A DNA stretch of 64,000 bases from Minisyncoccota bacterium (GCA_041661005.1 JBAZVG010000001.1:196917-260916); one strand, 5' to 3'; numbered from the stretch's first letter, positions 26,711 through 40,386 are shown. Notes: generated by a model from the sequence alone, not told the origin. Program-made: numbers and translations.

Positions 26711-26737
26711 ACTCTTTATCGGTATATCTTTTTCTAG

Positions 26738-26810
26738 GGTACGGATTTTTTTAAGCTTAAAAAATCCTGAAGTTTTCGGCTCGTCAGCCTCAAAACCCCC
26801 TAAAAAAGTT
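26738..26810 (+). repeat. 72-bp intergenic repeat, copy 3
   Basis: GGTACGGATTTTTTTAAGCTTAAAAAATCCTGAAGTTTTCGGCTCGTCAGCCTCAAAACCCCCTAAAAAAGTT. Confidence 0.65.
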
Positions 26811-26837: not shown

Positions 26838-27959
26838 ATGCAAAATTTTTGGAAAAAATTAAAAAAGCCCGCCTTGCCTGACGGAAGTCGAGGCAGGCCA
26901 TTTTTCTGCCTTGCGCCGATGTCAGATGTCACTGATATCGCTTTTCGTCACATGTTGGCAAAATATGGCAAAAATAGGGAAAATAAAGATAGAGTTGTTT
27001 TTTGGACAGAGTTTGTGTCTGCTGATGGTTTGTGCAATAAATTTGCCAGACAAAAGTTGGCACACATGCTGGTCTTCTCGGAATCTGAAAGGCCAATTGT
27101 GGCGCAAATTTTTGGCGCTAATCCGGAAAATATGAAGAAAGCTTGCCAATATGTCGCAAATCTTGGCTTTGATGGGATAGATATAAATATGGGTTGCCCA
27201 GATAAATCAGTCGTGAGTCAGGGGGCTGGCGCAGGGTTGATTAAAAATCCAGAACTTGCGCGACAGATTATCAAAGCAGTTCATGCGGGTATAAAATCAG
27301 CTGGACGAGACATACCTGTGTCAGTGAAAACTAGAATTGGTTTTAATAAAGAAGAAATTGATCGCTGGATACCAGAATTATTAAAAGAAGATATTTCTGC
27401 TTTGACGATTCACTTGCGCACAGCCAAAGAGCTTTCACTCGTTCCAGCCAATTGGGAACATATCAAAAAAATAAAGAAACTTATAGAAAAAAGTGGGAAA
27501 AATATTTTGCTGATAGGCAACGGTGATGTGAAAGATTTAAAAGATGCAGAAGAAAAAGCCTCGAAATATGGCTGTGATGGGGTGATGATAGGTCGCGGAG
27601 TTTTTGGCAATCCGTGGTTTTTTGATTCCACTAGAAAAATGGAAAACGGTAGTGAATTTTATGTCCCCGAGGGTCCCGCTTTGTGTCCCTTAATGCGCCC
27701 AAAGAAGGGCGCAGGGGCAGAAAATTCACTACCGTTTTCCATTATACGAGAAAAACTTCAAGTCCTCATAGAGCATACGCAAATTTTTGATAAAGAACTT
27801 GCGATACCTAAACATAAAAATTTTGATGTAATGAAAAAACATTTCAAGGCTTATGTGAATGGTTTTGATGGCGCCAAAGAACTTCGAATAAAATTAATGG
27901 AAACTGAAAATTCGAAACAAGTTGAAAAGATAATAAATGATTTTTTGGAAACAAACTGA
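26838..27959 (+). CDS. dus: tRNA-dihydrouridine synthase
   Basis: FMN-binding TIM barrel motifs LAPMSDVTD.AFR and GFDGIDINMGCP. Carries an in-frame ~106-nt inverted-repeat insertion (27638-27743). Confidence 0.85.
   Translation: MQNFWKKLKKPALPDGSRGRPFFCLAPMSDVTDIAFRHMLAKYGKNRENKDRVVFWTEFVSADGLCNKFARQKLAHMLVFSESERPIVAQIFGANPENMKKACQYVANLGFDGIDINMGCPDKSVVSQGAGAGLIKNPELARQIIKAVHAGIKSAGRDIPVSVKTRIGFNKEEIDRWIPELLKEDISALTIHLRTAKELSLVPANWEHIKKIKKLIEKSGKNILLIGNGDVKDLKDAEEKASKYGCDGVMIGRGVFGNPWFFDSTRKMENGSEFYVPEGPALCPLMRPKKGAGAENSLPFSIIREKLQVLIEHTQIFDKELAIPKHKNFDVMKKHFKAYVNGFDGAKELRIKLMETENSKQVEKIINDFLETN
27638..27743 (+). repeat. In-frame ~106-bp palindromic element inside dus: 23-bp perfect terminal inverted repeats AATGGAAAACGGTAGTGAATTTT / AAAATTCACTACCGTTTTCCATT
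   Basis: Read from the sequence. Its GC-rich palindromic core GCGCCCAAAGAAGGGCGC is translated in frame as ..MENGSEFYVPEGPALCPLMRPKKGAGAENSLPFSI.. Confidence 0.7.
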
Positions 27960-28065
27960 GTCAAAGTTTGACTAAATACATATTTTTGTGTTAAAATAAA
28001 TCTGGAGATAGTTATCCATTTTGTGATGCAAATCAGCACTACAAAAAGAAAAAGGGTAGCTCACA

Positions 28066-28581
28066 ATGAAGAATATGATCCTTAACAATGCGGTATTGCA
28101 GAGTTTTGGTAAAACGGACAAGCGGTGGTGGATGAAGGTATTAAACCTAAGCTTGGTAACTCAAGAATATGCCACAAAACTTCCCAAATCGGTGAAATTT
28201 CCCACTTTTGAATGTCACACGATATGTAGGGCAATCGCCAAGCATATTCATGGATTAAAGGTAGTTGATGGTTACTATGTGGGAGTAGCTCAACAACACA
28301 GAAATGGCAAAGTCGTAGCGCAATTACAATATTGTGAGCATTCGTGGTTGGTCACACCGAGTGGTTCCATTATTGATCCATATCCGGTTGGATGTCTGGC
28401 AACCAATCCAATTCTGGTGGTGAACCGAGGTAAATACAAAAACTTCGGGGGAGACCTTTATTGGCCGGACAGATTCATCACCAAGAAAGTATGCACTCAA
28501 AGACTGCGCGAAAAAGTGAAAATTCTATCGCGTATTGCCAAAGAGGCTGAGAAACACGCTCGACGCTCCGAGCATAGTTAG
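28066..28581 (+). CDS. Hypothetical protein (171 aa, Cys/His-containing)
   Basis: ORF only. Confidence 0.45.
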   Translation: MKNMILNNAVLQSFGKTDKRWWMKVLNLSLVTQEYATKLPKSVKFPTFECHTICRAIAKHIHGLKVVDGYYVGVAQQHRNGKVVAQLQYCEHSWLVTPSGSIIDPYPVGCLATNPILVVNRGKYKNFGGDLYWPDRFITKKVCTQRLREKVKILSRIAKEAEKHARRSEHS

Positions 28582-28608
28582 AGGGTTACTAATTAATCCT
28601 CAAAAAAA
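28574..28608 (+). repeat. Conserved stop-codon-overlapping stem-loop (copy 2 of 2), followed by a terminator hairpin
   Basis: ATAGTTAGAGGGTTACTAATTAATCCTCAAAAAAA, then AGCTAGC-taaacaaaat-GCTAG plus TTTTTTT (28608-28637). Confidence 0.5.
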
Positions 28609-28663
28609 GCTAGCTAAACAAAATGCTAGTTTTTTTAGTTATATATAAGGTATAATCATTTCT

Positions 28664-29722
28664 ATGCACGACTTGGCATTATATCGCAAATATCGGCCGA
28701 AAAACTTCAAGGAAGTCTTGGGGCAAGATCATATCGTAAAAGTGCTGGAAAGCTCTGTAGAAGCCAACAAGGTTTCCCACGCATACCTTTTTGTAGGTTC
28801 GCGTGGCACAGGCAAAACTTCCGTCGCCAGAATTTTTGCAAATGAAATCGGTGTATCAGCCAATGACTTATATGAGATAGACGCCGCCAGCAATAGGGGA
28901 ATCGAAGATATAAAAGAATTGCGTGATGGCGCGCGAGTATTGCCTTTTGATTCAAAATACAAAGTTTATATAATCGACGAAGTGCATATGCTCTCCAAAG
29001 ACGCTTGGGGTGCGTTATTGAAGACCCTAGAAGAACCTCCAAAACATGTTATTTTTATTCTAGCTACCACTGAGTTTCATAAAGTGCCTGAGACTATTAT
29101 CTCACGCTGTCAGGTTTTCACTTTCAAAAAAGCATCAGACGTAGTTTGTAAAAAAATGCTGACTGATGTTGGGAAGAAAGAAGGTTTCGATTTGGATGCC
29201 GGCTCGGCCGAGCTTTTAGCTGTATTATCTGATGGATCGTTCAGGGATGGATTGGGAGAGTTGCAAAAAGTTTTGAATTTCAGTGGAAGTAAGAAAACCC
29301 GCCTAGACTCGGCGAGGCTGGTCAATAGAGAAGATGTTGAAAAAATAACCGGCGCGCCAAAGGCGACTTTGGTAAATGATTTTATTTCAGCAATTGCAGA
29401 AAAAAATATTGAAAAAGGAATATCTGTCGTGCGATCTGCGGCTGAAGAAAATTTAGATATGGAATTATATTTGAAACTCATTATCGCAAAATTCCGTATG
29501 GCGATAATTTTGCGATACGCGCCAAAATTAAAAGGAGAGATGATAGGGGATTTATCTGAAGCTGATTTAGAATTTCTGCAGATTTTAATAAAAGAAAGTG
29601 GGGAGATGTTTAATTCTTCTACTCTAGCGACACTTTTAGAAGCTTATCAGAATATAGATAATGCGTTTATTACCGAGTTACCACTGGAGCTTGCGTTAGT
29701 GAAGATTTTAAGCAAAGAGTAA
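28664..29722 (+). CDS. dnaX: DNA polymerase III gamma/tau subunit (short form)
   Basis: YRKYRP..F.EV.GQ.H ... HAYLF.G.RGTGKTS.ARI.A ... AWGALLKTLEEPP. Carries an in-frame 24-nt repeat copy. Confidence 0.85.
   Translation: MHDLALYRKYRPKNFKEVLGQDHIVKVLESSVEANKVSHAYLFVGSRGTGKTSVARIFANEIGVSANDLYEIDAASNRGIEDIKELRDGARVLPFDSKYKVYIIDEVHMLSKDAWGALLKTLEEPPKHVIFILATTEFHKVPETIISRCQVFTFKKASDVVCKKMLTDVGKKEGFDLDAGSAELLAVLSDGSFRDGLGELQKVLNFSGSKKTRLDSARLVNREDVEKITGAPKATLVNDFISAIAEKNIEKGISVVRSAAEENLDMELYLKLIIAKFRMAIILRYAPKLKGEMIGDLSEADLEFLQILIKESGEMFNSSTLATLLEAYQNIDNAFITELPLELALVKILSKE
29298..29321 (+). repeat. 24-nt short form of the 45-nt element inside dnaX (translated TRLDSARL)
   Basis: CCCGCCTAGACTCGGCGAGGCTGG, identical to the short copy in alr. 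Confidence 0.7.
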
Positions 29723-29725
29723 TAT

Positions 29726-30586
29726 TTAAAAATAACTATTCGCCTTTACTAATTCTTTGAAGTCACTAAACATTCTTTCTGCTGTTATTCTTCCTCCAGC
29801 ACCAGGACCTTCTATAATTTTTTTACCATTAATATACAAAACGTTATTTACACCTTTTGGAAACCAAGAAATGTCTTCAAATTTAATAAATCCTGCTTTA
29901 ATTTCTTTTTTATTCAAAAGTACAGAGCATCGAAGACTTTGATTATATTTTTGTAATTTTATATCTTCAGTTTTGATTGTGCGTTTGTAAAGTTTGGAAT
30001 GATTGGCAAGTATCAGTGTTTTATAAATTACGTCTTTCAATTCGTTTTCAATAACTTCTTCAAAGTTTTTTGAACTTGGCTCAGCGAAACCATTTCCCAA
30101 TACTTCTCTATATAGTTGTTCCTTAGAAACTCCTGTACTTAATTTATCACTTATATAATTCAGCGTTCCATTTGCTATAACTTTAATTTCTTTCATTTTA
30201 TTTTTATTTTCTGTAATTGCATTTAAAATTCCAGAATTACCTCCGACTGTCGCTGAATATTTTATTAGTTTTTTAAATTTTTTAATCAGCTCCCAGTTAT
30301 TAGCTAAAAAAGCTTTTTCACAAGTTATAATCTTTGCATTTTTTTGTAATGCATTTAAATAGTATTTAGACGCATCTTCTCCTTTACCTTTACTGGGTAT
30401 AGCTATAAAAATATACGTGTCTGAATCTAAATATTTTTCAAGATTTTGATTTTCATCAATCTTTAAATTATTAGCATCAAATATGCCATTGGTTTTGACA
30501 ATGAAATTTTCCGCTAAGTTTTTCTCGTTAAGAATCTTATGCAATTCTTTTCCCACGTTTCCATATCCAATAAGTATAATTTTCAT
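29726..30586 (-). CDS. Homoserine dehydrogenase-family protein (putative)
   Basis: N-terminal Rossmann MKIILIGYGNVGKELHKIL ... ITCEKA (compare vvTANKA); C-terminal region resembles the HSDH catalytic domain. Weak call. Confidence 0.4.
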   Translation of the reverse strand: MKIILIGYGNVGKELHKILNEKNLAENFIVKTNGIFDANNLKIDENQNLEKYLDSDTYIFIAIPSKGKGEDASKYYLNALQKNAKIITCEKAFLANNWELIKKFKKLIKYSATVGGNSGILNAITENKNKMKEIKVIANGTLNYISDKLSTGVSKEQLYREVLGNGFAEPSSKNFEEVIENELKDVIYKTLILANHSKLYKRTIKTEDIKLQKYNQSLRCSVLLNKKEIKAGFIKFEDISWFPKGVNNVLYINGKKIIEGPGAGGRITAERMFSDFKELVKANSYF

Positions 30587-30695
30587 GCTTATCTAGTATA
30601 TCAGAATTACATATGGCAAGGGGACTTTGAAAGATTAAAAAGATATCTAGTTTTTTCTAAAAATTTATGTTATAAATTAAGTGTTTTTAAGATAT

Positions 30696-30766
30696 TGGGG
30701 GATCGTCTAATGGTAGGACACATCCCTTTGAAGGATGTTATTTTGGTTCGAGTCCAAGTCCCCCAG
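30696..30766 (+). tRNA. tRNA-Gln (anticodon UUG)
   Basis: Acceptor TGGGGGA/TCCCCCA, anticodon stem-loop CATCC-CUUUGAA-GGATG, T-loop TTCGAGT. GC content jumps immediately at its 3' end. Confidence 0.8.
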
Positions 30767-32446
30767 CACGTTTGGACTCACAGAGGCGGATGCCTCATTT
30801 GGCCCTTTCGACAGGCCAGTATTTTCAGGTTCGATTGGCTTGTTTTCGGTTTCTGTATCCGACATGGACTTTTCGAGGATGAAGAACGGTTCGCGGGCTT
30901 CAATGCTCAGCTTTTTGGCCTTCAAAGTTAGGTTCGATCCGAATGTCACCAGCATCTCCTCTTTGGTCTTCGCATCGCCGTTCGCGAACCGCTCCCGAGC
31001 GGTCGAGGCAAATTCAAACGTGTCTTCGGACAGTTTTAACTGCTGCTCAATCCGCTTCCCGGCATCCTGAAGCAACTCCTCCAAAGCGGACTTTTCTTTG
31101 AGTAGCTTCACCCTCCTCTGACCGTATTCCTCATCCGATAGCTGGCTTCCGTCTGCGTTGCTGGACGAGGTTTTCAGACCCACCAGATTGTCGATTTCCT
31201 GCAAGCACGCTCGATATGCCTTCTGCTGGGCTTCGATGATGGCGCTTTGCTCCATGCTCTCCTTCGCGTGCAATTCATGGAGGAATTTGATGCAGTAGGC
31301 TTTGAATTTCTCGGAAATATGGATGCGGCCAAGATATTCACGAATCTGCCTTTCGAGATCAAATGCACTCACACTCTTCTGCGGACAAGATGGACGTTTG
31401 CTTTTTGAACAATGGTAATAGGTGTAGTGAAGGAAGAGCGGGTTCGTCATTTCTTCGATCGATGTCTGGCAGCGCGGGCAGGCGTTTCGCTTGCGGTAGG
31501 CAAACTTGAACCGGCATTGGCCACACATGACCTGGTGCTTTTCCTCAGCGGTCACCATCCGGTCACACTCGCCACAACGGATGAGGCCGGTGAAAGCAAA
31601 TTCAAAGTGCGATTGAGGCCGCGGACTGCCGTTGCGGCCAAGCAAAGTCTGCACCCGGTCATATTCCGCTTCGGTGATCATCGGCTCGTGCTTTCCCTGA
31701 TACCACTTGTTGCTGCCGTTTGGATATTCAAACCAGCCGTAATAGAAGGGCTTGGTGAAGATCTGGTAGATGGCGCTTCGGCAAAGAGGCTTGCCACCCA
31801 TCTTGCGCGTTGGCCTCGTGCGGAAGGCCCACTCTTTGTTGGCGATTTCCAGAATTCTCGGCGGGGTGTAGAGGCCGGTCAGCATCAAATCCCACATGCG
31901 ACGGAGCAGAGGAAAACGCTCCGGATCTTTGACCAGAGTGTTTTCGCCCGTCAGCTTGTCGGTGTGGTTCAAGTAGCCTGCCGGGGCGACGCCGGGATAC
32001 CAGCCGTTTTCGGTCTTGGTCTTGAGTCCCCGTTTTACGTTTTTGCTCAGGTCGTCCACGTATTTCTGCGCCATGCCGAATTCGATATACATGAGGATGA
32101 TATTGTCATCTTCACGGGCGTAAGTCTGGGCCGGGGTCATGATCCTGATGCCATGCTGTTTGATGCCCCAGATGATGGAACCTCCGTCCACCGGATTACG
32201 CGCCAGACGATCAAGTTTCCAGCAGATGACGCCGGCAGCTTCACCACGGTAAAGGCGTTGCATCATCTGATTGAACACCGGGCGCCCCGGATCTTTTGCG
32301 GATTTCGACTCGGTCAATACTTCGACAACTTGTAAATTTAACTTGGCCGCCAACTGCTCCAATTCGCGGGTTTGGGATTCAATGGAAAGAATCTGCCGGT
32401 CTTCGGCTTCGGATGATTTGCGACAATAGATGAAGTATCCTGACAT
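30707..32446 (-). CDS. Large serine recombinase (integrase of a tRNA-Gln-associated island)
   Basis: N-terminal resolvase catalytic domain IYCRKSSEAEDRQ..SIESQ ... LDRLARN, a recombinase domain, a zinc ribbon CGECDR...CGQC...CPRC, and a coiled coil. Its 3' end overlaps the tRNA-Gln 3' half on the opposite strand. Confidence 0.8.
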   Translation of the reverse strand: MSGYFIYCRKSSEAEDRQILSIESQTRELEQLAAKLNLQVVEVLTESKSAKDPGRPVFNQMMQRLYRGEAAGVICWKLDRLARNPVDGGSIIWGIKQHGIRIMTPAQTYAREDDNIILMYIEFGMAQKYVDDLSKNVKRGLKTKTENGWYPGVAPAGYLNHTDKLTGENTLVKDPERFPLLRRMWDLMLTGLYTPPRILEIANKEWAFRTRPTRKMGGKPLCRSAIYQIFTKPFYYGWFEYPNGSNKWYQGKHEPMITEAEYDRVQTLLGRNGSPRPQSHFEFAFTGLIRCGECDRMVTAEEKHQVMCGQCRFKFAYRKRNACPRCQTSIEEMTNPLFLHYTYYHCSKSKRPSCPQKSVSAFDLERQIREYLGRIHISEKFKAYCIKFLHELHAKESMEQSAIIEAQQKAYRACLQEIDNLVGLKTSSSNADGSQLSDEEYGQRRVKLLKEKSALEELLQDAGKRIEQQLKLSEDTFEFASTARERFANGDAKTKEEMLVTFGSNLTLKAKKLSIEAREPFFILEKSMSDTETENKPIEPENTGLSKGPNEASASVSPNVLGDLDSNQNNILQRDVSYH

Positions 32447-32532
32447 GGAAATGGGTGATTAAAATAAGGGAGGCGGGCGACCTTGGAGCCTGCATCCCTA
32501 TGCTAACGTACCGGCAAAATACGTCAATGAGG

Positions 32533-32796
32533 TCACTGGCTAAGACGGTTCTCGTCGGGCTCCTTGTCTGAACCCGGCTGCTTCAGAATCCCGAAGAAGC
32601 GAAGTAGACGCACAGCGATTTCTTGGATCTCGTCGTCGCTAAGACGCTTACCGAACTCCTCTTGGTAAATGGCTCTGAACTCCTCGATAGCTTCACGACT
32701 TAGTTGTTGTGGTGTTTTCATATCGTCCACTTTACTTGCTGTTACTCTTCGGCAAAGGACGGAAGAATTGCCACATACGGCATGTCCGCATTGCAC
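32533..32796 (-). CDS. Small helical hypothetical protein upstream of the recombinase (possible directionality or regulatory factor)
   Basis: ORF only; the likely true start is an internal Met (MKTPQQLSREAIEEF...). Confidence 0.3.
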   Translation of the reverse strand: MQCGHAVCGNSSVLCRRVTASKVDDMKTPQQLSREAIEEFRAIYQEEFGKRLSDDEIQEIAVRLLRFFGILKQPGSDKEPDENRLSQ

Positions 32797-33024
32797 TTGG
32801 AACTAGAATTCGGGGCACCTCCCTTGACGAATAGCGAGTTTCGTGCTTAAATACGAAAACCTTCCACCGAGTTCAAGAAGCTCGGTGTTTAATAGGTTTG
32901 CCATTTCTGGCAAAGGTTCCCGCCTTTGGTATTTTTACCATTGAGATATGGTGGTGTCGTGGAACTCGCATTGGGTTCCTCCGCTTCCACACTGATGACT
33001 TCACTTCAACTTCCAAACTATTTG

Positions 33025-33366
33025 CTATCTAATCGAAAACGCCTGACTCTTTCTCAAGAAGAGGTCGCATTTCTGTTGGGAGCGGGAAGGCGGCGTATTG
33101 TCCACCTTGGTCGTCGCGGCGAGCGTGACCCGCGAGAGGCGGTTGCCGGCATCGTCGTAGGCGTATGACTCAGCCGAACCGTCGGAATATGCGGCGTTGG
33201 TGAGGCGGGACAGGGGGTCGTGGGAATGCTCGAAAGTGGCGCCATTTACTTGCGATATCGCAAGGATAATGCAACCGCAGGCCAAAACGTAAACAGCGGT
33301 AAACATAATACACCTCATACTAGTTATTGTTAAATACGTTAAATACGATTCGGATAACCAACCCAA
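33025..33366 (-). pseudogene. Fragment: signal peptide plus a single YD/RHS repeat (YAYDDAGNRL), likely a remnant of an RHS-family protein
   Basis: Hydrophobic N-terminus MFTAVYVLACGCIILAISQVNGA, then a YxYDxxGRL-type repeat, then an unrelated tail. Confidence 0.4.
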
Positions 33367-33471
33367 TCATTGTAATCGAAATAACTAACCACATAGGTGG
33401 AAGAAGCGGCCCATCATGACCGAAAAATAAACCACGTAAAAACGAAATTATCTGCTGGATTGTTTGCTTTT

Positions 33472-34962
33472 TCATGGAAGCTGAAAGAGATTTATATAAG
33501 CGTTCACACCCTGTTGAATTTGATCGCCTCGCAGTTGGAAAAGATTTAACGTATAGGTGTTCAAAAAAACAGCGCTATACGAAGTCAAAGCATCATCAAC
33601 AGACTGCCACGCCTCAAGCGGATTATGTAGTGCATACGTCAGGTTCTCGTCAATGTGCATAATACTTTCACCCAGAGTGCTGAAATCGACGCCCCGAGCA
33701 CGCAATTCGGCCTGACTTGATTGGAAAACGCCGTAAACAGTGGAGGCCCTTGCAGTTAATCTGAGCGTGCGACCGATACCATGAAGGTCGATAACGTTTC
33801 CCGGTGATAATCGCAGTTGTCCAATCGTAACTCGACCGTATCCCGTATCCACATACAGTTCGAGCCGCGAACCAATTTCGCGCAACAGCCATTCAATCGA
33901 TTCTCTTGGCAAATCGCCAAAATTTAATTGACCGAATATATTGCCTGAGGTTGTTCCTCCTTCCTGCGCCGACAAGCCACTTACATCAAGCCATTTCAAA
34001 GGATTGTTCAGCGCATACACATAGCGATTCAAACTCTGCCCGTCGCTGTCCTTCCCAGTAACTGGGTCTTTAGTGGCAAATCGGCCCAGTTGCGGGCTGA
34101 AATAGCGAGCGCGGGCATGATAAAGACCATTACCGTCATCCATGATACCATACCGCCCCAGATAACGGAAGGGCTGCGGAGAATCCCCCTCGGAATTCGC
34201 CACGACGCCAAACGAATCAAACGCGTAGGCGTCGGTTTCGTCTCCGTTGGTGTTGAATGAATCATTCCCACCGATGGACTGAACTTGATGCGAATACAGT
34301 TTGTTAATCAGACGTTCGCGTTCCATGAACTGCTCTGGTTGCAGAAATGGACGATCCCAGCGTAAGTAGTGTTTGAAATAAATACATCTGAGAATGGTTC
34401 GCATCTCTGACGCACTAACGAGTACACGCTGATCTGGTAAGAGCACCATTAAGTCTGCTGGATAACTTGTCTGTCCATCGTAAGTTTGAAGAACTGGATA
34501 ATGGTAAGCAAAATCCACGGTGCGAAATCCGAGTCGCTTGAAATACCCGATCAGTTTGTCGTCGGGCTCCCATTGTTGGGAACTATTCCGCCTCCGTGCT
34601 ACCTCAAACACAATGGAAAAACCAGGTGGGTAGTTCTGTGCGAGAAACTGTTCTATACTCCTAATAGCACGACTTGGCAAAAGGCCAGGCCGTTTGGAGT
34701 CGCGAATGCATAGATACTCAAAGAAGAAAAGTTGTTCCTCTATGAAAAAGCTGTACTGCAAATATCCCACAACGGTGTGGTCATTTTGAAGTGCAAAGCA
34801 TTTGAACTCATCGGCGAGAACTTCTTTGCTGTGCTCGATCCAATAGAGAATCTGGCGCTCTGGATTCTGAGCTTCCGGCAGTATGGTTTCCCGGTAGATA
34901 CTCAAAGCTGCATACAAGCGATTCTTCCCGCGATTTGTCCGGTCGATTGGCTTAAGAAACAT
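33472..34962 (-). CDS. Chimeric protein: N-terminal GNAT-like fold, RHS repeat-associated core domain, C-terminal ~170-aa variable (toxin-like) domain
   Basis: The core reads PFRYLGRYGIMDDGNGLYHARARYFSPQLGRFATKDPVTGKDSDGQSLNRYVYALNNPLKWLDVSGL, which matches the RHS core consensus (..Y.ARYYDP..GRF.S.DP ... N.Y.Y..NNP....DPSGL). The N-terminus FSIVFEVARRR..KLIGYFKRLGF is GNAT-like. Confidence 0.55.
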   Translation of the reverse strand: MFLKPIDRTNRGKNRLYAALSIYRETILPEAQNPERQILYWIEHSKEVLADEFKCFALQNDHTVVGYLQYSFFIEEQLFFFEYLCIRDSKRPGLLPSRAIRSIEQFLAQNYPPGFSIVFEVARRRNSSQQWEPDDKLIGYFKRLGFRTVDFAYHYPVLQTYDGQTSYPADLMVLLPDQRVLVSASEMRTILRCIYFKHYLRWDRPFLQPEQFMERERLINKLYSHQVQSIGGNDSFNTNGDETDAYAFDSFGVVANSEGDSPQPFRYLGRYGIMDDGNGLYHARARYFSPQLGRFATKDPVTGKDSDGQSLNRYVYALNNPLKWLDVSGLSAQEGGTTSGNIFGQLNFGDLPRESIEWLLREIGSRLELYVDTGYGRVTIGQLRLSPGNVIDLHGIGRTLRLTARASTVYGVFQSSQAELRARGVDFSTLGESIMHIDENLTYALHNPLEAWQSVDDALTSYSAVFLNTYTLNLFQLRGDQIQQGVNAYINLFQLP

Positions 34963-35287
34963 AGATAATTGTTAATTATCCGTGATGTGGGCGAGATGTC
35001 TTGTTCGGAAATGTGTGTTTCGTATCCGACATTGCGGTAGTCAGTGCAGGAGACCAAGGAAGATGTTGCTAGTCTGCTGGATTCCTCTCTCTTGGTTCTT
35101 CGCAAGACAGTGTTCTGTCACAAAAGTGATCGAATTACAGTGGGCTTTTGTTTTCGGAGCGAGGCTTTGATAACGGATTTCTGGTGCATACACATACCAC
35201 AGCCTAATGTTTTTGAATTACTGGTCTATGAGTTATGATTGTCCTCCTGCGAGATTTATAGAGAAATAGTTTGCTGGATGAGGGCGT

Positions 35288-35761
35288 ATGTTGAGGTATA
35301 TGCATATTTGGTGCTATAATGAGAACATGTGGGTTATTTATGCATTTATAGCTGCATTGTTGTGGGGTCTTGATTATGCACTTACAGAAAAAGTACTAAA
35401 CAGGATTACATTCTCGACATTGCTCAGTATTGAGTTGTTTTTCGGTCTGCTTGGTATGCTCTTGTTGGGGCTTTTACGGGGGACGTATTGGAAAGACTGG
35501 TCAGTGATTCTCTCTTCCCAAAAGATAATATGGCACGTTGTTATAATTGTGCTTGTGTTCAACATCGCCAACACTTTTATCGTTCTTTCCATTGGAAACA
35601 AGAACGCCACCCTTGCGGGCTTAATTGAGATTTCTTACCCCTTGTTTATTGCCGTTTTTTCGTGGTTCTTGTTCAAGGAGAGCCATGTTAACCTATGGAC
35701 AGGAATTGGTGCGGTATTGGTGTTTAGCGGGATTGGGTTGATCTACTACGTCAACAAATGA
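35288..35761 (+). CDS. EamA/DMT-family transporter half (4-5 TM), hypothetical
   Basis: Hydrophobic protein with an EamA-like WGLDYALTEK region; 157 aa, likely a fragment. Confidence 0.4.
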   Translation: MLRYMHIWCYNENMWVIYAFIAALLWGLDYALTEKVLNRITFSTLLSIELFFGLLGMLLLGLLRGTYWKDWSVILSSQKIIWHVVIIVLVFNIANTFIVLSIGNKNATLAGLIEISYPLFIAVFSWFLFKESHVNLWTGIGAVLVFSGIGLIYYVNK

Positions 35762-35862
35762 AGAGGAAAAGGGACGCTCATCCTTGCCGGCGTCGGCAAA
35801 TAAGAAAAAGGGCGACCCGATTGGATCGCCCTTGTGATTAGTAGTCTTCCGGCACCCAAGCG

Positions 35863-36240
35863 GTGAGTTTGTTTGAGCAGGCAATTTTGGTCGCTCAAGC
35901 ATTACATGATTTGCGATATGAAGGATTCTGGATGGGTAGTCTTGGTGTCCTTTATATGGAAGAAAAGCACTACAAGGACGCGGAAGCTTTCTTGCAACGC
36001 GCTTTGGCAATCGCTATTCAAATAGGTGACCAACGTTACGAAGGAACGCATTTGAGTTGGCTTGGGGATTTATACACCACGACGGGCCAATTTCAGAAAG
36101 CTCGTGAATGCCTTGAAAGGGCCGTGAAATTGGCAGAGGATCTGCAGATTGAATCATGGATTCAGCAGCGCAAAGCGAAAATTGAGAAATTGGAACGTTT
36201 GGAGAAGGAGGCGGGTGACCACGCTCGTCCTCAAATCTGA
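35863..36240 (+). CDS. TPR-repeat protein fragment
   Basis: Three TPR-like helical repeats (..AE.FLQRALAIA...GDQRYEG..L..LGDLY...GQFQKA.E.LERA..LA). Confidence 0.4.
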   Translation: MSLFEQAILVAQALHDLRYEGFWMGSLGVLYMEEKHYKDAEAFLQRALAIAIQIGDQRYEGTHLSWLGDLYTTTGQFQKARECLERAVKLAEDLQIESWIQQRKAKIEKLERLEKEAGDHARPQI

Positions 36241-36855
36241 TTGGACCTTATTGGACAAAGCTCGAACTCTTTTCGATGAACATCGAAGTGATACGCAGAA
36301 AACGATGCCGATGAACCGACCGGATGATTTCACCGTCGCGCTCGGTGATTTGGATGGGGGCAACCGCAGATGCGCGTTTGAAACGGGGAAGACGATGGGA
36401 TTCCATCCATCCACGGTAACGAAGATCAAGCTCCTAATGTAGGAGGCGGGGTTTGCGCACTGCGCCAAGTCACATAATCTCGGTGATGTTTCAGTATAAT
36501 CATTGGAAGCAAATTGTCACTATTACATTAACACTCTGCAATCCTAGCTTGACGGACAATAGGCACTTACTTACGGATAAACGATAAAAGCCCCTTCGGG
36601 GTGTTGGATGATGAATAATGGATGTTCAAACGCGCCAATATCGTAGCACAAAAAAAACTCCGAATACATACAATGACGTATTCGGAGTCACGCTTTGATA
36701 CAACCAACAGATGCGTGATTCTTGTTGGGCGACCCTTTGGTCCGCTCAAGGCTCGGGTAGATCCAAGAGAAGCCGAGTTAAGACGAGGTTATCCCAGGGA
36801 ACTCGGACTGCTGGGACACACATTATAGCACAGGTAAGTGGCAATGTGTCATCAT

Positions 36856-37581
36856 CTAAACATTGTCGTCTTGATTTAGTCCACCCCTTACCTCCGCTAG
36901 CCTCCGCGACAGAGACAGCAATTCGTCTTCCATTCCAAAATATGACCAGTCCTGAATGTAGCGGGTGTAGAACGAGTAAATGCCAGCACTGAATCCGTTC
37001 AATAGCCTATCCGATATCCACTCATTTCCAAACTCAATACGGAAATCATCGAGAATGTCATCATTCTTGAGTCTTAAGAGTTCCGCAGCTTCGCCTTCAA
37101 CTGCGTCTTGGCACAACGCTAAAACCTCTCGACAGCGTTGCCTGATGTCTAACTGGTGCGTCGGAATACGGGTCCAGTTATGGCGTTCGGAGAGGTGGAG
37201 GTCATCTCTAAAGCATCCAAGGAGTGTATCGTTAGTCGCCAATTCTTCCCAGATCTTCCGGGCTCTTGGAGTGACCGTAATTGCGTCGCCTGGACTCAAT
37301 AAAGATGGTGCATACCCTCTGTCAGATTCAATCAAGCGTTCGGCATATAATTCATCGAGCATGTCGCTCATCTGCTCTGGCTTTTTCGCGAAATAGCTAG
37401 CACCAATTGCATTCATGGCATCCAACGTCCATGGCGACCGTGTGCGCTCTTCAACGAATGGTTCCACCAGTCGGCGATGAGAATGCGGCTGCCACAACGG
37501 CAGCAGATGGGGAATCAACCAGCGCTTGCCACCCGGCCATTTGAGCGGTGGCCGGTTCTCCGTTGTGCTCGTAATCGGCAA
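36856..37581 (-). CDS. Hypothetical protein with an N-terminal remnant of a D12-class (Dam-like) adenine MTase motif
   Basis: PLKWPGGKRWLIPHLLPL....RLVEPFVE matches the Dam N-terminal motif (KWAGGK..L...I......Y.EPF.GGG), but the rest is unrelated. Confidence 0.35.
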   Translation of the reverse strand: MPITSTTENRPPLKWPGGKRWLIPHLLPLWQPHSHRRLVEPFVEERTRSPWTLDAMNAIGASYFAKKPEQMSDMLDELYAERLIESDRGYAPSLLSPGDAITVTPRARKIWEELATNDTLLGCFRDDLHLSERHNWTRIPTHQLDIRQRCREVLALCQDAVEGEAAELLRLKNDDILDDFRIEFGNEWISDRLLNGFSAGIYSFYTRYIQDWSYFGMEDELLSLSRRLAEVRGGLNQDDNV

Positions 37582-37743
37582 GGCTGGAGAGAAGTCACGC
37601 GAGTTGTGACTGACGACAGAAACACGCCTTTGAAATGGGCGTAGATGAGTGCGGCTGCCCGTTCTGCTTTGTGACCATAGGCTCGAACATCGTCCAGTCC
37701 TCTCAGCATTTTAAATGAGAGTGATTACTTGCAATTATCCTTG

Positions 37744-37766
37744 CTTGCAATGAAAAAAATTGCAAG
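37744..37766. promoter_or_regulatory. Dyad CTTGCAAT-N7-ATTGCAAG (plus an extra TTGCAAT half-site at 37729) upstream of an extended -10 (TGATATAAT ~37787-37795) preceding the putative REase gene
   Basis: Read from the sequence. Confidence 0.4.
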
Positions 37767-37801
37767 TTTATAACTTTCTAGGAAAGTGATATAATCCCAA
37801 C

Positions 37802-38638
37802 ATGTCTAGTAATTTAATCGGAAAAACAGAAGCTATCAATTTTCTTAATGTATCAGAAAAAGATTTTAAAAATTACCATGAATCTAGTAAAGAAATAGAA
37901 GGTCAAAAAATATCAGGAAGATGGTATTTTGATAAACAAAAATTAGAAGAATGGAAAAAATTAAAGGGAGAAAGAACCATATTTTTAACTATTAGTGAAT
38001 ATGAAAAATGTTTTCAATTTGCAATTAAAATGGTTTATGGAGGACTTTCTCTTAATGGAATAAGAGGACAAAGAACAGAGGTTCAAGCAGCAGACGATGT
38101 TATTTTAGGAATTCTTGCAGAACATGCTGTTAAGAATTTTCTAAAAAATAAATTCTCAATCGAAATAGAATTAGACGAAGAAGTTCACCCAGAACGTATT
38201 ACCCCTCAAGACTTTGATAAAATCAAGGTAAATAATGTTTTCAAAACACCTAAAATAGGTGTGGGTATCAAAGCAAGTAAAATGAAAAACGCCTTTTTGG
38301 TTTTAGGAGGTAATGAAGTAGACCTCAAGGAAAGAAGAAGTGATGTTTATGTATTTGCCAGAGTAGGTTTACCAAGCGACCACTTATTTAGGATTTTACG
38401 AGACCATTCATTCTTTAAACAAGTAAGAGAATTTATGGATAAAGATAAAAAATTTAGAAAAATAGAATTACTAAAACCAATTCCAATATGGATATGTGGT
38501 TTTACATACAAAGAAGAGTTAGAAAAAGTAACTGAAATTCCGGGTCAAGAATTTGCAAATGGGTATAGATATGTTAAGTCTGTAAGTAAACTTCACAACT
38601 CAGACCAAGACTGGAAAAATCTTATAAAAAAACTTTAA
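37802..38638 (+). CDS. Putative type II restriction endonuclease with N-terminal excisionase/MerR-type HTH (HTH_17-like)
   Basis: Convergent with and abutting a C5-MTase gene (2-nt gap). N-terminus LNVSEKDFKNYHES..ISGRWYFDKQKLEEWKK matches the (G)RW.F....L..W pattern. No clear PD-(D/E)xK motif could be assigned by eye. Confidence 0.5.
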   Translation: MSSNLIGKTEAINFLNVSEKDFKNYHESSKEIEGQKISGRWYFDKQKLEEWKKLKGERTIFLTISEYEKCFQFAIKMVYGGLSLNGIRGQRTEVQAADDVILGILAEHAVKNFLKNKFSIEIELDEEVHPERITPQDFDKIKVNNVFKTPKIGVGIKASKMKNAFLVLGGNEVDLKERRSDVYVFARVGLPSDHLFRILRDHSFFKQVREFMDKDKKFRKIELLKPIPIWICGFTYKEELEKVTEIPGQEFANGYRYVKSVSKLHNSDQDWKNLIKKL

Positions 38639-38639
38639 T

Positions 38640-39647
38640 CTAGTATGCCATGGCTAGGGACAACCTAGGTTGTGTAGCTTGTTGCGTTTGTCCATTCAGC
38701 ACCTCCTGAATATTGTTCGCAATTCTACCAATGACAGAAATACTTACGGAATTACCGAATTGTTTATATAAATGTGAATCTGAAATATTTGGTAATTTAT
38801 AGGAATTAGGAAAACCTTGTAGGCGAGCACATTCTCTTGGTGTTAACTTTCGTATACCACGAGAATCCCTTACTAAGGGGACATTATGACCTCCTGTACC
38901 CATATTTGCAGTTAAAGTAGGACATACTCCACTTTTATTATGTCTTATATATTGTCGTCTCCATTGATAGACATCTCCAATTTCAAAATCGTACTTTTTT
39001 AACTTTTCAAACAAAGGTTTGTCGTTATAATAGTATTTCTGATCAATAAATTCTGGCTTTTCCAAAATATCTAAAACAGTTTTATTTCTTTCAATTTTTT
39101 CAGGAAATTCAAAACTATTAATATATCCAGTATCTTTTCTAAAACCAACAATATATATCCGCTCTCTGTTTTGGGGAACATTCCCATAATGCATACTATT
39201 TAATATTTCAGCTTTAACATCATAACCAAGCTCATCCAATGTTTTCAGAATGACACGAAATGTATTTCCATTATCATGATTATAAAGATTTTTTACATTT
39301 TCTAAAAGAAAGCCAATGGGTTTTCTTTCATCAATTATTCTTGCAACATCAAAAAATAAATTACCCCTGTCATCTTTAAATCCATGACGATAACCAGCAA
39401 TAGAAAATGCCTGACATGGGAATCCACCCAATAAAAAATCAAATTGGGGTAAATCACTAATTTTAATTTTTCTTATATCCTCAACAGTTAAAGCTGTATC
39501 TTTAAAATTTAGATCGTAAGTATCTTTGCATTTAGGTTCAAAATCATTAGCAAAGACTGTATTAAAGCCAGCTTTTTCAAAGCCAATTCTTATACCTCCG
39601 ACTCCCGCAAATAAGTCTATTGTTCTATATTTTTTTACATTTGCCAT
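38640..39647 (-). CDS. DNA (cytosine-5)-methyltransferase
   Basis: Motifs I DLFAGVGG, IV GFPCQAFS, VI ENVKNL, VIII QNRERIYIVG, X RKLTPRECARLQGFP. Confidence 0.9.
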   Translation of the reverse strand: MANVKKYRTIDLFAGVGGIRIGFEKAGFNTVFANDFEPKCKDTYDLNFKDTALTVEDIRKIKISDLPQFDFLLGGFPCQAFSIAGYRHGFKDDRGNLFFDVARIIDERKPIGFLLENVKNLYNHDNGNTFRVILKTLDELGYDVKAEILNSMHYGNVPQNRERIYIVGFRKDTGYINSFEFPEKIERNKTVLDILEKPEFIDQKYYYNDKPLFEKLKKYDFEIGDVYQWRRQYIRHNKSGVCPTLTANMGTGGHNVPLVRDSRGIRKLTPRECARLQGFPNSYKLPNISDSHLYKQFGNSVSISVIGRIANNIQEVLNGQTQQATQPRLSLAMAY

Positions 39648-39718
39648 TGATTATAATTATAACATTATCCCTTTAAAAAAGCAGCAATCAACTTTTACAG
39701 TTATGTTATAATGCTTTT

Positions 39719-40084
39719 ATGAGTGATGAAGAGAATAGTATAAATAGACTAGGCATTGACCAGACTAGTTTGGGGAAACTAAAACCTGAAGATCTTAATA
39801 ATGCAAAAACTGCTGGAATGGTTTTAAATTACTTAACCTCTCTAGAGTCTGAAAATACTCAACTTAAAACAAAAAATGAAACCTTGAGTACTTATGTGAG
39901 TAGTTATAATAATCAAAAAAATAATTCAAAAATTGCTGCAACTTTATCTTTAATTTCAGTTGTCTCTATTGGTTTTGCAATAAATATTCTTACAAGTGAT
40001 AGTAAAAATTATGGAGGTTATATACTTTTAATCATTGGTATTGTGCTGCAGTTATATAGTACCTATTTAACTTATAAAGAATGA
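39719..40084 (+). CDS. Hypothetical membrane protein (2 C-terminal TM)
   Basis: ORF only. Confidence 0.35.
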   Translation: MSDEENSINRLGIDQTSLGKLKPEDLNNAKTAGMVLNYLTSLESENTQLKTKNETLSTYVSSYNNQKNNSKIAATLSLISVVSIGFAINILTSDSKNYGGYILLIIGIVLQLYSTYLTYKE

Positions 40085-40386
40085 GATATATTTTTAATAC
40101 ATCAGGTGAATACGTGGCCTTTATTTCAGGAGATAATTTATTTAATCTGAACTGCGATTGGATTGGTTTTATTTTAAACGGCAATGAAGTTTATTCATCA
40201 AACGATTTATCTTTTATTGGCTATATTAGTGCAGATGATAGAATCTTAGGTAAAAGAAATGATTTACGTAAACTTCGTCCATTACGACCACTTCGTCCAT
40301 TACGACCACTTCGTCCATTACGACCACTTCGCAGACTAAGAATGCTTAGAGTGCCTTATCCATGGTTTGATGTGTTTGAAAAATAA
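40081..40386 (+). CDS. Hypothetical protein with (LRP)n tandem repeat
   Basis: The ORF contains RKLRPLRPLRPLRPLRPLRRLRMLR, encoded by a 9/18-bp DNA tandem repeat (40272-40335). Confidence 0.3.
   Translation: MRYIFNTSGEYVAFISGDNLFNLNCDWIGFILNGNEVYSSNDLSFIGYISADDRILGKRNDLRKLRPLRPLRPLRPLRPLRPLRRLRMLRVPYPWFDVFEK

What the first reader, a model, noticed from the sequence alone, without database searches (positions are those of the whole stretch)
30696..37740. GC-rich (~55%) ~7-kb genomic island integrated at tRNA-Gln with a large serine recombinase
Base composition switches abruptly at the 3' end of tRNA-Gln (30766) from ~33% to ~55% GC and returns near 37740. The first island gene is a large serine recombinase whose 3' end overlaps the tRNA on the opposite strand (an attachment site reconstituting the tRNA). 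The cargo is decayed: RHS/YD toxin pieces, a TPR fragment, a transporter half and a Dam-motif remnant. This is clearly foreign DNA from a high-GC donor captured by a CPR-like host, and a second GC-rich block at 16.6-17.9 kb may share its origin.
Basis: partly seen in the sequence, partly recalled or inferred. Interest (0 to 1): 0.7.

Follow-up and report, generated by a model that had tools for sequence, protein, structure and literature searches.

The report
Serine-integrase island that splits its own gene
A 6.9-kb piece of foreign DNA sits just after a tRNA-Gln gene of a tiny-genome (Patescibacteria) bacterium. It was inserted by a large serine integrase whose attachment site lies inside its own gene, so insertion cut off and relocated the enzyme's tail. 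This layout is reported so far only for archaeal integrases of a different enzyme family.

Summary
Window 30769-37708 (6,940 bp) has 48.8% GC, not ~55%, against 35-38% for the host. It starts right after tRNA-Gln(UUG), and a large serine recombinase (LSR) gene runs antisense into that tRNA.

The island is a true site-specific insertion, not an assembly chimera. Its far end (37708-37620, minus strand) encodes the missing C-terminal tail of that same LSR. Joining the two ends at a shared 5-bp core (CAGCA) gives one 623-codon ORF collinear with unsplit 595-630-aa homologues. A separately built Logan assembly reproduces both junctions at 100% identity, though possibly from the same sample.

So attP lies inside the LSR gene. 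attB is the last 22 nt of the tRNA plus its trailer. The tRNA is not rebuilt from island DNA.

The tail-side attP arm equals the tRNA 3' end with a 5-bp insertion before TCGAACC, which is the known attP/attB spacing rule for these enzymes.

Homologues fused to tRNA-Gln, Asn, Ser, Asp or Trp are common in Patescibacteria. Verrucomicrobiota copies are all unsplit.

The cargo is decayed. The GC-rich block at 16.7-17.9 kb shows no link to the island.

Verdict: a new variant of a known kind.

The parts
30696..30766 (+). tRNA-Gln(UUG), intact and host-derived. Its last 22 nt (30745-30766: T-loop, T-stem and 3' acceptor strand) form the B' half-site of attB.
   Evidence: ARAGORN; Rfam RF00005, 60.1 bits; junction alignment with other tRNA-Gln-fused loci.
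30764..30768 (.). attL core CAGCA, the only block identical to the other end. The probable crossover dinucleotide is CA at 30767-30768, immediately 3' of the discriminator G30766.
   Evidence: Sequence read directly. Reconstruction of attP and attB. A GGAC motif lies at positions 6-9 in the P arm, and at 6-9 or 7-10 in the P' arm, around this dinucleotide in the canonical sites (by inspection).
30707..32446 (-). Large serine recombinase, integrated (split) form, 579 aa. Residues 1-560 are element-encoded. Residues 561-579 (LGDLDSNQNNILQRDVSYH) are the antisense tRNA, with the stop codon in the antisense D-loop.
   Evidence: Pfam Resolvase, Recombinase and Zn ribbon. 5,725 homologues, the best at 72-84% identity. 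PDB matches to a conjugative-transposon recombinase catalytic domain and to A118 integrase. The same C-terminal ending occurs in P0007, P0008, P0009 and P0013.
32533..32796 (-). Small conserved ORF directly upstream of the recombinase. The conserved part starts at the Met at 32721 (MKTPQQLSREAIEEF...). It is a candidate regulator or directionality factor; its function is unknown.
   Evidence: tblastn finds it directly upstream of the recombinase, on the same strand, in about 30 loci at 40-80% identity. No significant Pfam match.
32926..33168 (+). Truncated XRE-type HTH gene of the element backbone. Homology to other elements ends at about 33081-33094. The RuvC-like backbone gene that follows in relatives is missing here.
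   Evidence: blastn extent against L004, L005, L003 and others. The ORF contains QLPNYLLSNRKRLTLSQEEVAFLLG, matching L026 9182-9508. Weak HTH_3 and RuvC matches for the L026 genes.
33025..33366 (-). RHS-repeat fragment (113-aa ORF).
   Evidence: PF05593, 24.3 bits against a cut-off of 22. tblastn to RHS cargo of L024.
33472..34962 (-). Chimeric 496-aa ORF. Residues 1-242 are the truncated front of a widespread 331-aa protein family. Residues about 243-496 are the end of an RHS core plus a C-terminal toxin-like region.
   Evidence: Homologues P0122-P0240 cover only about 49% of the query at 65-80% identity. P0123 residues 1-242 align to 34962-34237. Residues 237-334 match the RHS cargo of L024. 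NCBI names it 'RHS repeat-associated core domain-containing protein'.
35288..35761 (+). Single-domain EamA-family membrane protein (157 aa).
   Evidence: PF00892, 1.4e-13. 50% identical to a gene 2 kb from a recombinase fragment in Limisphaerales locus L051.
35863..36240 (+). TPR-repeat protein fragment (125 aa).
   Evidence: PF13424, 9.6e-17.
36856..37581 (-). 241-aa ORF of unknown function. Its first ~35 residues resemble the N-terminus of D12-class adenine methyltransferases by eye only.
   Evidence: Translation. No Pfam family at E<=5.
37620..37708 (-). Displaced 3' end of the recombinase gene (LRGLDDVRAYGHKAERAAALIYAHFK...), encoding the conserved C-terminal helix. The P' half-site of attP is 37680-37706 and includes GACGATGTTCGAGCC at 37694-37680.
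   Evidence: Translation. tblastn with canonical tails, E=3.6e-12. Tail HMM 46 bits, the only hit in the window. The DNA motif occurs once in the window. 86% DNA identity to the tail of L004. Joining it to the body gives a 623-codon ORF.
37704..37708 (.). attR core CAGCA. AT-rich host DNA resumes at 37709.

Best explanation
Window 30769-37708 is an integrated, partly decayed member of a large family of small cargo islands moved by a large serine recombinase (LSR).

In the free circular element, the attachment site attP lies inside the LSR's own reading frame, at about codons 558-566. This is at the end of a disordered linker and just before a conserved C-terminal helix.

The chromosomal partner attB is the 3' end of tRNA-Gln. 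The tRNA's last 22 nt form one half-site. The crossover dinucleotide (probably CA) directly follows the discriminator base. The tRNA's 3' trailer forms the other half-site.

Strand exchange therefore left the tRNA intact. It fused the LSR body to the antisense tRNA, giving 19 new codons and a stop. It carried the LSR's own tail to the far end of the island, 6.9 kb away.

Shown here: the split-gene anatomy, the junction positions, the attP/attB half-site geometry, and the recurrence of the same anatomy in other genomes.

Inferred, not shown: that the zinc-ribbon domain reads the universal T-loop sequence TCGAACC while the recombinase domain reads the acceptor/T-stem part; that loss of the tail helix changes the enzyme's activity or directionality after integration; and that the small upstream ORF is a regulator or directionality factor.

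The element has since lost part of its backbone and most of its cargo, so it may no longer be mobile.
For: 1. Split gene. The minus strand at 37708-37620 encodes LRGLDDVRAYGHKAERAAALIYAHFK. This is the conserved tail of unsplit homologues (...LGDLDDVRTYGYKAERAAALIYAHFKKEFG).
2. Joining 30769 to 37708 at the shared core gives an in-frame 623-aa ORF collinear with the 595-635-aa homologues.
3. The two ends share only CAGCA. No longer direct repeat exists. This fits a serine integrase, not a tyrosine integrase.
4. Half-site geometry. The attP tail arm is CTG(G/A)GAGGACTGGAC-GATGT-TCGA(A/G)CC and the tRNA arm is CTGGGGGACTTGGAC-TCGAACC. The outer motif is thus 5 bp closer to the centre in attB. 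That is the rule described for LSR sites (PMC11722253). The same 5-bp shift appears in a clade only 41-44% identical (L061 versus tRNA-fused L080 and others).
5. Recurrence. LSRs of 58-79% identity end in the same antisense tRNA-Gln in L001, L002/L003, L021 and L024. More distant ones end in tRNA-Asn, Ser, Asp or Trp.
6. A separately built assembly (Logan contigs of run SRR18595301) covers both junctions at 100% identity.
7. The left flank is syntenic (topA, dprA, serS, dus, holB, tRNA-Gln) with a Saccharibacteria MAG. That MAG carries a different island with a 78%-identical LSR at the same tRNA.
8. An AlphaFold2 model of the unsplit homologue P0001 shows a coiled coil at 379-488, a disordered linker at 518-566 and a tail helix at 567-589 (pLDDT about 78).
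9. LSR bodies 93-95% identical carry tails only about 30% identical, so exchange at this site happens in nature.
Against: - No empty attB and no circular attP junction of this element was found. Both metagenome scans returned nothing.
- No read-level data were available.
- This window is the only case among the loci fetched in which both ends of an island could be read. In L001, L003 and L024 no tail was found within 10 kb.
- All Verrucomicrobiota copies sit unsplit in long chromosomal contigs. Integration through the intragenic site therefore cannot be the only way these modules reside in genomes.
- The exact crossover dinucleotide is inferred from symmetry, not measured.
- Any functional consequence of losing the tail is untested.
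- The AlphaFold2 model has low overall confidence (mean pLDDT 67, pTM 0.31).
Confidence: 0.85

Rival explanations
1. Assembly or binning chimera: a roughly 50%-GC fragment from another organism was joined to the low-GC genome at the conserved tRNA sequence.
For: The GC step coincides with a tRNA, and tRNAs are conserved between genomes. The data come from a metagenome. No coverage data could be examined.
Against: - A chimera would need two false joins that both return to the same genome.
- The two ends of the insert are the two halves of one recombinase ORF, broken at the same position as in tRNA-fused homologues from other samples.
- A separately built Logan assembly reproduces both junctions at 100% identity.
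- The source contig is 813 kb, nearly a whole genome of this group.
Confidence: 0.03
2. The island integrated by an attP outside the recombinase gene. On this view, the tail-coding piece at 37620-37708 is the remnant of a second, deleted recombinase gene from a tandem element, not the displaced end of this one.
For: - Remnant recombinase 3' ends and 'orphan' tails do occur next to related recombinases (L004 12840, L041 15353).
- The island is visibly decayed.
Against: - The fragment starts exactly at the 5-bp core, with AT-rich host DNA directly upstream and no recombinase-like codons before it.
- The resident recombinase ends at exactly the complementary position.
- The join is in frame.
- No second recombinase-like sequence exists in the window.
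Confidence: 0.07
3. The region is old, vertically inherited DNA of this lineage, with unusual composition for functional reasons, rather than a recent insertion.
For: A related MAG also has an island with the same kind of recombinase at the same tRNA-Gln.
Against: - The two islands share only the recombinase module (77% DNA identity) and have different cargo.
- The host genes beside them are only 44-63% identical in protein while the recombinases are 78% identical.
- The module's closest relatives (82-85%) are in another phylum.
- GC and tetranucleotide use differ from the host.
Confidence: 0.03

Closest known systems
Large serine integrases of phages and mobile elements (phiC31, Bxb1, A118/LI, SPbeta SprA)
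   Same: Resolvase catalytic domain, recombinase domain, and zinc-ribbon domain with an inserted coiled coil. Short att sites with a tiny crossover core and no long repeats. The outer half-site motif lies 5 bp closer to the centre in attB than in attP.
   Different: attP lies inside the integrase's own coding sequence, so integration replaces its C-terminal helix. The target is the 3' end of a tRNA gene. Sequence similarity to solved integrases is marginal (E about 6e-4 to A118).
SSV-type 'suicidal' tyrosine integrases of archaea (SSV1, pTN3, pT26-2)
   Same: [quoted passage not shown]
   Different: They belong to an unrelated enzyme family (tyrosine recombinases) and an archaeal host domain. 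There the split removes essential parts of the enzyme. Here only about 35-60 C-terminal residues after a disordered linker are exchanged, and all catalytic and DNA-binding domains stay together. The review states that such self-disrupting recombinases are found exclusively in archaea.
Integration-dependent immunity of mycobacteriophage BPs and relatives
   Same: attP sits inside a protein-coding gene of the element, so the integrated and free forms encode proteins with different C-termini. This acts as a switch (PMC4557955).
   Different: In BPs the split gene is the repressor and the integrase is a tyrosine recombinase. A switch function is demonstrated there and only hypothesised here.
tRNA-gene genomic islands of the Islander/TIGER type, and tycheposons
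   Same: A small cargo island next to an intact tRNA gene, with the integrase gene at the tRNA-proximal end. A few such islands have been predicted to use serine integrases: 14 of 297 in TIGER (PMC7192596) and 27 of 937 tycheposon-like elements.
   Different: The classical type uses tyrosine integrases and duplicates a tRNA 3' segment of tens of bases. Here nothing of the tRNA is duplicated. The 2020 TIGER paper says that use of a tRNA gene by a serine integrase had not been reported before and needed proof.
SCCmec and related elements moved by Ccr large serine recombinases
   Same: LSR-driven cargo islands inserted at the extreme 3' end of a conserved housekeeping gene (rlmH) without inactivating it, and prone to stacking. 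This comparison rests on my own knowledge of the SCC literature.
   Different: The target is a protein-coding gene, attSCC is not inside ccr, and there are two recombinase subunits.

Membership tests
Large serine recombinase (serine integrase) | N-terminal resolvase-type catalytic domain with the serine nucleophile | tested here: met
   PF00239 E=7.9e-23 over residues 5-148. The YCRKSSEAEDRQ motif is invariant in 70 homologues. PDB 3g13 catalytic domain E=7e-8.
Large serine recombinase (serine integrase) | Recombinase domain (DBD1) | tested here: met
   PF07508 scores 29.4 bits against a cut-off of 21.1. Residues 207-317 align to A118 integrase 4kis.
Large serine recombinase (serine integrase) | Zinc-ribbon domain (DBD2) with an inserted coiled coil | tested here: inconclusive
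   PF13408 scores 25.0 bits, just under the 25.3 cut-off. Many homologues carry a precomputed PF13408 hit. Cysteines are invariant. AlphaFold2 of the homologue P0001 shows a long helical hairpin at 379-488 between beta elements, but overall model confidence is low.
Large serine recombinase (serine integrase) | Short att sites sharing only a small crossover core, with the attB outer motif about 5 bp closer to the centre than in attP | tested here: met
   5-bp shared core. The GATGT insertion before TCGAACC on the attP arm, relative to the tRNA arm, appears in 20 or more canonical sites and in a second clade. The rule is quoted in PMC11722253.
Large serine recombinase (serine integrase) | Catalyses attP x attB recombination | not testable with these tools
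   Needs an in vitro or in vivo assay.
Classical tRNA-gene genomic island (tyrosine integrase type) | Tyrosine integrase | tested here: not met
   No Phage_integrase match among the island ORFs. The only recombinase is of the serine type.
Classical tRNA-gene genomic island (tyrosine integrase type) | Direct repeat of a tRNA 3' segment at the distal end | tested here: not met
   The repeat search finds none. The ends share 5 identical bases. The neighbouring 16 nt are 11/16 identical ungapped, or 13/16 with one gap (read directly).
Classical tRNA-gene genomic island (tyrosine integrase type) | Insertion at a tRNA gene that leaves a functional tRNA | tested here: met
   The tRNA is intact by ARAGORN and Rfam.
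'Suicidal' SSV-type integrases | att site inside the integrase ORF, so the gene is fragmented on integration | tested here: met
'Suicidal' SSV-type integrases | Tyrosine recombinase fold and an archaeal element | tested here: not met
   The enzyme is a serine recombinase in a bacterial host.
'Suicidal' SSV-type integrases | The split form is unable to excise | not testable with these tools
   Only the C-terminal helix is removed. The activity of the 579-aa form is unknown.
RHS/YD polymorphic toxin | Long array of RHS repeats forming a shell, a core-end motif, and a C-terminal toxin | tested here: not met
   Only one repeat reaches the cut-off. There is also a core-end piece fused to an unrelated truncated gene. 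The relative L003 has a full protein of more than 3,460 aa. Here only fragments remain.

The most novel reading that the evidence does not exclude
The intragenic att site may be more than an integration site. It may be a general exchange point at which the recombinase swaps whatever lies downstream of its codon ~560.

In Verrucomicrobiota the unsplit recombinase would act as a fixed platform that captures and releases recombinase-less cassettes. Each cassette would bring its own replacement tail. This would be a serine-recombinase counterpart of an integron.

In Patescibacteria the same chemistry would insert the whole module at tRNA 3' ends. The gain or loss of the C-terminal helix would then act as an integration-dependent switch of recombinase activity or directionality.
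Probability: 0.3. Interest if true: 0.8.

Novelty: new variant of a known kind. Interest (0 to 1): 0.62.

Why it matters
Three reasons.

1. It gives sequence-level evidence, with both junctions and a reconstructable attP and attB, that large serine integrases use tRNA genes as targets. A 2020 survey called this unreported and in need of proof (PMC7192596).

2. It shows bacterial serine integrases that carry their attachment site inside their own gene and are remodelled by integration. A 2021 review describes this layout as exclusive to archaeal tyrosine integrases (PMC8371274).

3. The family is very large: 5,725 hits with E<=1e-10 among the candidates scored. It is frequent in Patescibacteria, whose mobile elements are poorly known.

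Its site logic reads a universal tRNA T-loop motif plus a tRNA-specific acceptor/T-stem part, shifted 5 bp in attP. This could explain how such enzymes retarget between tRNAs. It could also supply integrases aimed at sequences present in every cell.

For this particular window, the practical message is simpler. The island is real horizontally acquired DNA, now decaying, and not a mis-assembly.

Tried and rejected
- Searched for a long att direct repeat or a displaced tRNA 3' half at 37.6-37.8 kb. None exists. The resemblance of 37619-37634 to the anticodon arm is a chance match.
- Exact look-up of the recombinase in the assembly collection: not on record.
- Looked for an empty attB (tRNA 3' end joined to the right flank), and for the right flank alone, in JGI metagenome contigs.
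- Looked for displaced tails upstream of the other tRNA-fused recombinases (L001, L003, L024) with tblastn, a DNA motif and a tail HMM. None found within 10 kb. Tails of distant clades likewise gave no second complete example.
- Viral contigs hold only 2 relatives, so there is no support for a phage origin.
- Pfam does not confirm the Dam-like remnant.
- Tested whether the GC-rich gene at 16795-17814 belongs to the island: no shared homologues, no recombinase, weak k-mer similarity.
- Compared loci of two recombinases with 95%-identical bodies but different tails (P0027, P0028), hoping for a clean cassette insertion polymorphism. Homology stops about 25 nt past the core as expected, but one locus is not a simple insertion derivative of the other.
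- Literature searches found no description of this recombinase family in Patescibacteria or Saccharibacteria.

Full report

ARAGORN and Rfam both call an intact tRNA-Gln(UUG) at 30696-30766/7 on the plus strand. In 200-bp windows GC is 26-29% up to 30700. It jumps to 50-52% at the tRNA 3' end, stays mostly between 41% and 61%, and falls from 57% to 27% between 37500 and 37900.

Measured between the junctions defined below, the island (30769-37708, 6,940 bp) is 48.8% GC. Three host stretches are 35.2-38.1%.

ORF 30707-32446 (minus strand, 579 aa) has Resolvase, Recombinase and a borderline Zn-ribbon Pfam domain. Its 3' end runs antisense through the tRNA. The RHS, TPR and EamA pieces of the cargo are confirmed. 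The 'Dam remnant' is not confirmed by Pfam.

**2. What the two ends are.**

A search with the recombinase returned 5,725 homologues, the best at 72-84% identity. Their C-termini fall into two classes.

- Most are 595-635 aa. After a variable linker they end with a conserved tail, typically ...PNVLGDLDDVRTYGYKAERAAALIYAHFKKEFG.
- A minority of 578-579 aa (P0007, P0008, P0009, P0013 and the window protein) end ...LGDLDSNQ(D/N)NILQRDVSYH.

That second ending is simply the antisense translation of tRNA-Gln. The contigs carrying P0008 and P0013 indeed have tRNA-Gln overlapping the ORF end on the opposite strand.

The missing tail of the window's protein lies at the other end of the island. The minus strand at 37708-37620 reads LRGLDDVRAYGHKAERAAALIYAHFK. 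Its support:

- tblastn E=3.6e-12 with a canonical tail.
- 46 bits with a tail HMM, the only hit in the 64 kb.
- 86% DNA identity to the tail of locus L004.

Directly upstream of it is AT-rich host DNA.

**3. Reconstruction of the sites.**

The two junctions, written in the sense of the recombinase, are:

- attL: ...GAGTCCAAACG-TGCTG-GGGGACTTGGACTCGAACC...
- attR: ...CATTTAAAA-TGCTG-AGAGGACTGGACGATGTTCGAGCC...

They share only TGCTG, which is CAGCA on the plus strand at 30764-30768 and 37704-37708. A repeat search found nothing longer.

Swapping the arms gives two products. The first is an attP that reads in frame ...SPNVLRGLDDVRAY.... The whole reconstructed gene is one 623-codon ORF collinear with the unsplit homologues. 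The second is an attB made of the tRNA 3' end followed by its original AT-rich trailer.

The tRNA is therefore entirely host DNA, and nothing of it is duplicated. The gene that integration splits is the recombinase gene.

In canonical sites the P arm carries GGAC at positions 6-9 on one side of the TG (CA in tRNA sense). The P' arm carries GGAC at 6-9 or 7-10 on the other side. This points to the two bases immediately 3' of the discriminator as the crossover dinucleotide. That step is an inference.

**4. Half-site geometry.**

In 20 or more unsplit genes the tail-side arm is CTGGG(A/G)G(G)AC(T)TGGAC-GATGT-TCGAACC, with GACGATGTTCGAACC almost invariant at the DNA level. The tRNA arm is CTGGGGGACTTGGAC-TCGAACC.

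The attP arm thus equals the tRNA 3' end with five extra bases in front of the T-loop-derived TCGAACC. For large serine integrases, the motif read by the zinc-ribbon domain is known to lie 5 bp closer to the centre in attB than in attP. This difference underlies directionality (PMC11722253).

The conserved protein motif D-V-R-T of the tail is the translation of that DNA motif.

The same shift is seen in a clade only 41-44% identical. All its members share the body-side arm GTGAGGTTTCGTCACTAGGGCTC. Integrated copies continue with diverse tRNA 3' ends (...GGGATCGAACC...). The unsplit L061 continues with ...GAGTTCAGAACC, with the motif 5 bp further out.

I consider this strong internal evidence that these are genuine attP/attB pairs of a serine integrase.

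**5. Not an artefact.**

- Two Logan contigs from run SRR18595301, built separately from the window's contig (possibly from the same sample), are 100% identical to window 27833-32101 and 32393-40301. Each spans one junction.
- The identical cargo protein is on record on an 813-kb contig that NCBI names 'Candidatus Paceibacterota bacterium'.
- The left flank (topA, dprA, serS, dus, holB, a homoserine-dehydrogenase-like gene, tRNA-Gln) is syntenic at 44-63% protein identity with a 'Candidatus Saccharibacteria' MAG contig (L021, matching L002/L003). That contig carries a different island at the same tRNA, with a 78%-identical recombinase and an intact RHS protein of more than 3,460 aa.

A chimera would need two false joins that happen to bisect one ORF exactly where homologues in other samples are bisected.

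**6. The element and its state.**

Comparison of about 25 loci shows a conserved 3.1-kb backbone:

- a RuvC-like gene and an XRE-type HTH gene on one strand;
- a small conserved ORF and the recombinase, with its tail, on the other.

In the window, homology stops at about 33081-33094, inside the HTH gene. The RuvC-like gene is absent.

The cargo is fragmentary:

- one RHS repeat piece;
- a 496-aa ORF that fuses residues 1-242 of a widespread 331-aa family to an RHS core end plus toxin-like region;
- a single-domain EamA protein;
- a TPR piece;
- an unassignable 241-aa ORF.

The recombinase body, the small ORF and both att junctions are intact.

The recombinase's GC (52.6%) equals the family mean of 52.2% +/- 4% over 31 loci. 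The composition therefore reflects the element pool, not an identifiable donor. The nearest recombinases (82-85% identity) are in Verrucomicrobiota/Limisphaerales MAGs.

**7. Structure.**

An AlphaFold2 model of the unsplit homologue P0001 (70-sequence alignment; mean pLDDT 67, pTM 0.31) gives this layout:

- catalytic domain, residues 1-150;
- recombinase domain, 155-270;
- zinc-ribbon elements, with a long coiled coil at 379-488;
- a last beta hairpin, 505-516;
- a disordered linker, 518-566;
- a helix, 567-589 (pLDDT about 78).

The att core lies at the end of the linker. Integration therefore removes just this tethered helix and replaces it with 19 tRNA-encoded residues. What the helix does is unknown. 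A role in regulating activity or directionality is my hypothesis, by analogy with integration-dependent switches (PMC4557955).

**8. Family-wide picture.**

Among 80 loci from species-representative genomes, recombinases fused to the antisense 3' end of tRNA-Gln, Asn, Ser, Asp or Trp are the usual state in Patescibacteria. A strict motif gave 17 of 32 complete loci. Several of the 10 called 'other' are tRNA-like by eye.

None of about 19 complete Verrucomicrobiota loci is tRNA-fused. The 16 the classifier resolved are unsplit. The 3 it called 'other' also carry intact tails by the tail HMM, although they lie in contigs of up to 5.8 Mb. How those copies are inserted is unexplained.

Downstream of many of the unsplit copies, on the same strand, lie 'orphan' junctions. 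These consist of unrelated DNA, the core, and then tail-coding DNA. In several loci a conserved small-ORF/HTH module precedes the orphan, and cargo follows it.

Recombinase bodies 93-95% identical can carry tails only about 30% identical. In one such pair, DNA homology ends about 25 nt past the core. Exchange at the intragenic site therefore occurs in nature. Whether it amounts to cassette capture is open.

**9. Comparison with what is known.**

The enzyme passes the tests for a large serine integrase that could be run here; only the zinc-ribbon Pfam score falls just short of its cut-off. The island is not a classical tRNA island, since it has no tyrosine integrase and no tRNA repeat.

The self-splitting layout is that of archaeal SSV-type 'suicidal' integrases. 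A 2021 review calls that layout exclusive to archaea (PMC8371274). Here, however, the enzyme family is different and only a C-terminal helix is lost.

Use of tRNA genes by serine integrases was called unreported in 2020 (PMC7192596). It appears only as a small minority in tycheposon-like elements.

I found no paper describing this family. The library searched is incomplete, so prior description cannot be excluded.

**10. Verdict.**

The finding is real and its core reading is right: a foreign island placed at tRNA-Gln by a large serine recombinase in a CPR host. The att interpretation was wrong, in an interesting way. I rate it a new variant of a known kind, interest 0.62.

The island itself is a decaying copy. 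The value lies in the split-gene att anatomy that it happens to preserve at both ends.

Noticed in passing
L004 12840 and 14842; L007 13168; L026 12927; L034 13389; L016 20111; L050 7919; L043 12522; L041 12862 and 15353; L090 3441: 'Orphan' att-type junctions (unrelated DNA, then the core, then recombinase-tail coding DNA) lie 0.8-8 kb downstream of unsplit recombinases, always on the same strand. In L004, L026, L007 and L090 they are preceded by a conserved module: a small ORF on the opposite strand, an XRE-HTH gene, and the arm GGTATATCTACCAA. L090 2808-3466 is 82% identical to L004 14218-14879.
   Followed up: partly
Proteins P0001-P0120; loci L090 and L091: Recombinase bodies 93-95% identical carry C-terminal tails only about 30% identical (for example P0027 and P0028). 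For 37% of proteins, the nearest neighbour by body sequence has a tail less than 40% identical. DNA homology between the two loci ends about 25 nt after the att core.
   Followed up: partly
80 genome loci L005-L084: There is a split by phylum. Patescibacteria copies are mostly fused to tRNA 3' ends (Gln, Asn, Ser, Asp, Trp). Verrucomicrobiota copies are never tRNA-fused and always unsplit, even in contigs of megabase size.
   Followed up: partly
window 19507-20127 (-) and 20086-20170 (-): A LAGLIDADG homing-endonuclease-like ORF (PF14528, 1.2e-11) abuts and mechanically overlaps the 3' side of tRNA-Leu(CAA). Group I introns and homing endonucleases in Patescibacteria tRNA genes have been described (PMC13011429, seen).
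   Followed up: no
window 11294-11360, 14909-14975 and 26737-26805: Three copies (87-89% identical) of a ~70-nt repeat, GGTACGGATTTTTTTAAGCTTAAAAAATCCTGAAGTTCTCGGCTCGTCAGCCTCGAAACCCC, with two hairpin-forming palindromes. It may be a small dispersed intergenic element or an RNA.
   Followed up: no
window 16795-17814 (+): A GC-rich (54%) single gene for a signal-peptide protein with no Pfam domain and only four homologues (45-65% identity) among 5.8 billion proteins. It is probably a separate horizontal acquisition.
   Followed up: partly
window 37802-39647: The original neighbour of tRNA-Gln (the B side of attB) is a restriction-modification-like pair. It comprises a 278-aa protein with a weak N-terminal HTH and a C5 cytosine methyltransferase (PF00145, 4e-97). 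Palindromic TTGCAA repeats lie at 37725-37775 between attR and the first gene.
   Followed up: no
window 15003-16538 (-): An EPSP-synthase-fold protein (PF00275) with an N-terminal XRE-type HTH domain. This is an unusual fusion.
   Followed up: no
L077 8538-10675: A Verrucomicrobiia recombinase gene whose residues 1-223 are on the plus strand (10001-10675) and residues 219-491 on the minus strand (9323-8538). It looks inverted or rearranged within the gene.
   Followed up: no
L001 5900-7156: A second, shorter serine recombinase (418 aa, Resolvase plus Recombinase) lies inside the GC-shifted block next to the tRNA-Gln-fused recombinase of another Patescibacteria contig.
   Followed up: no
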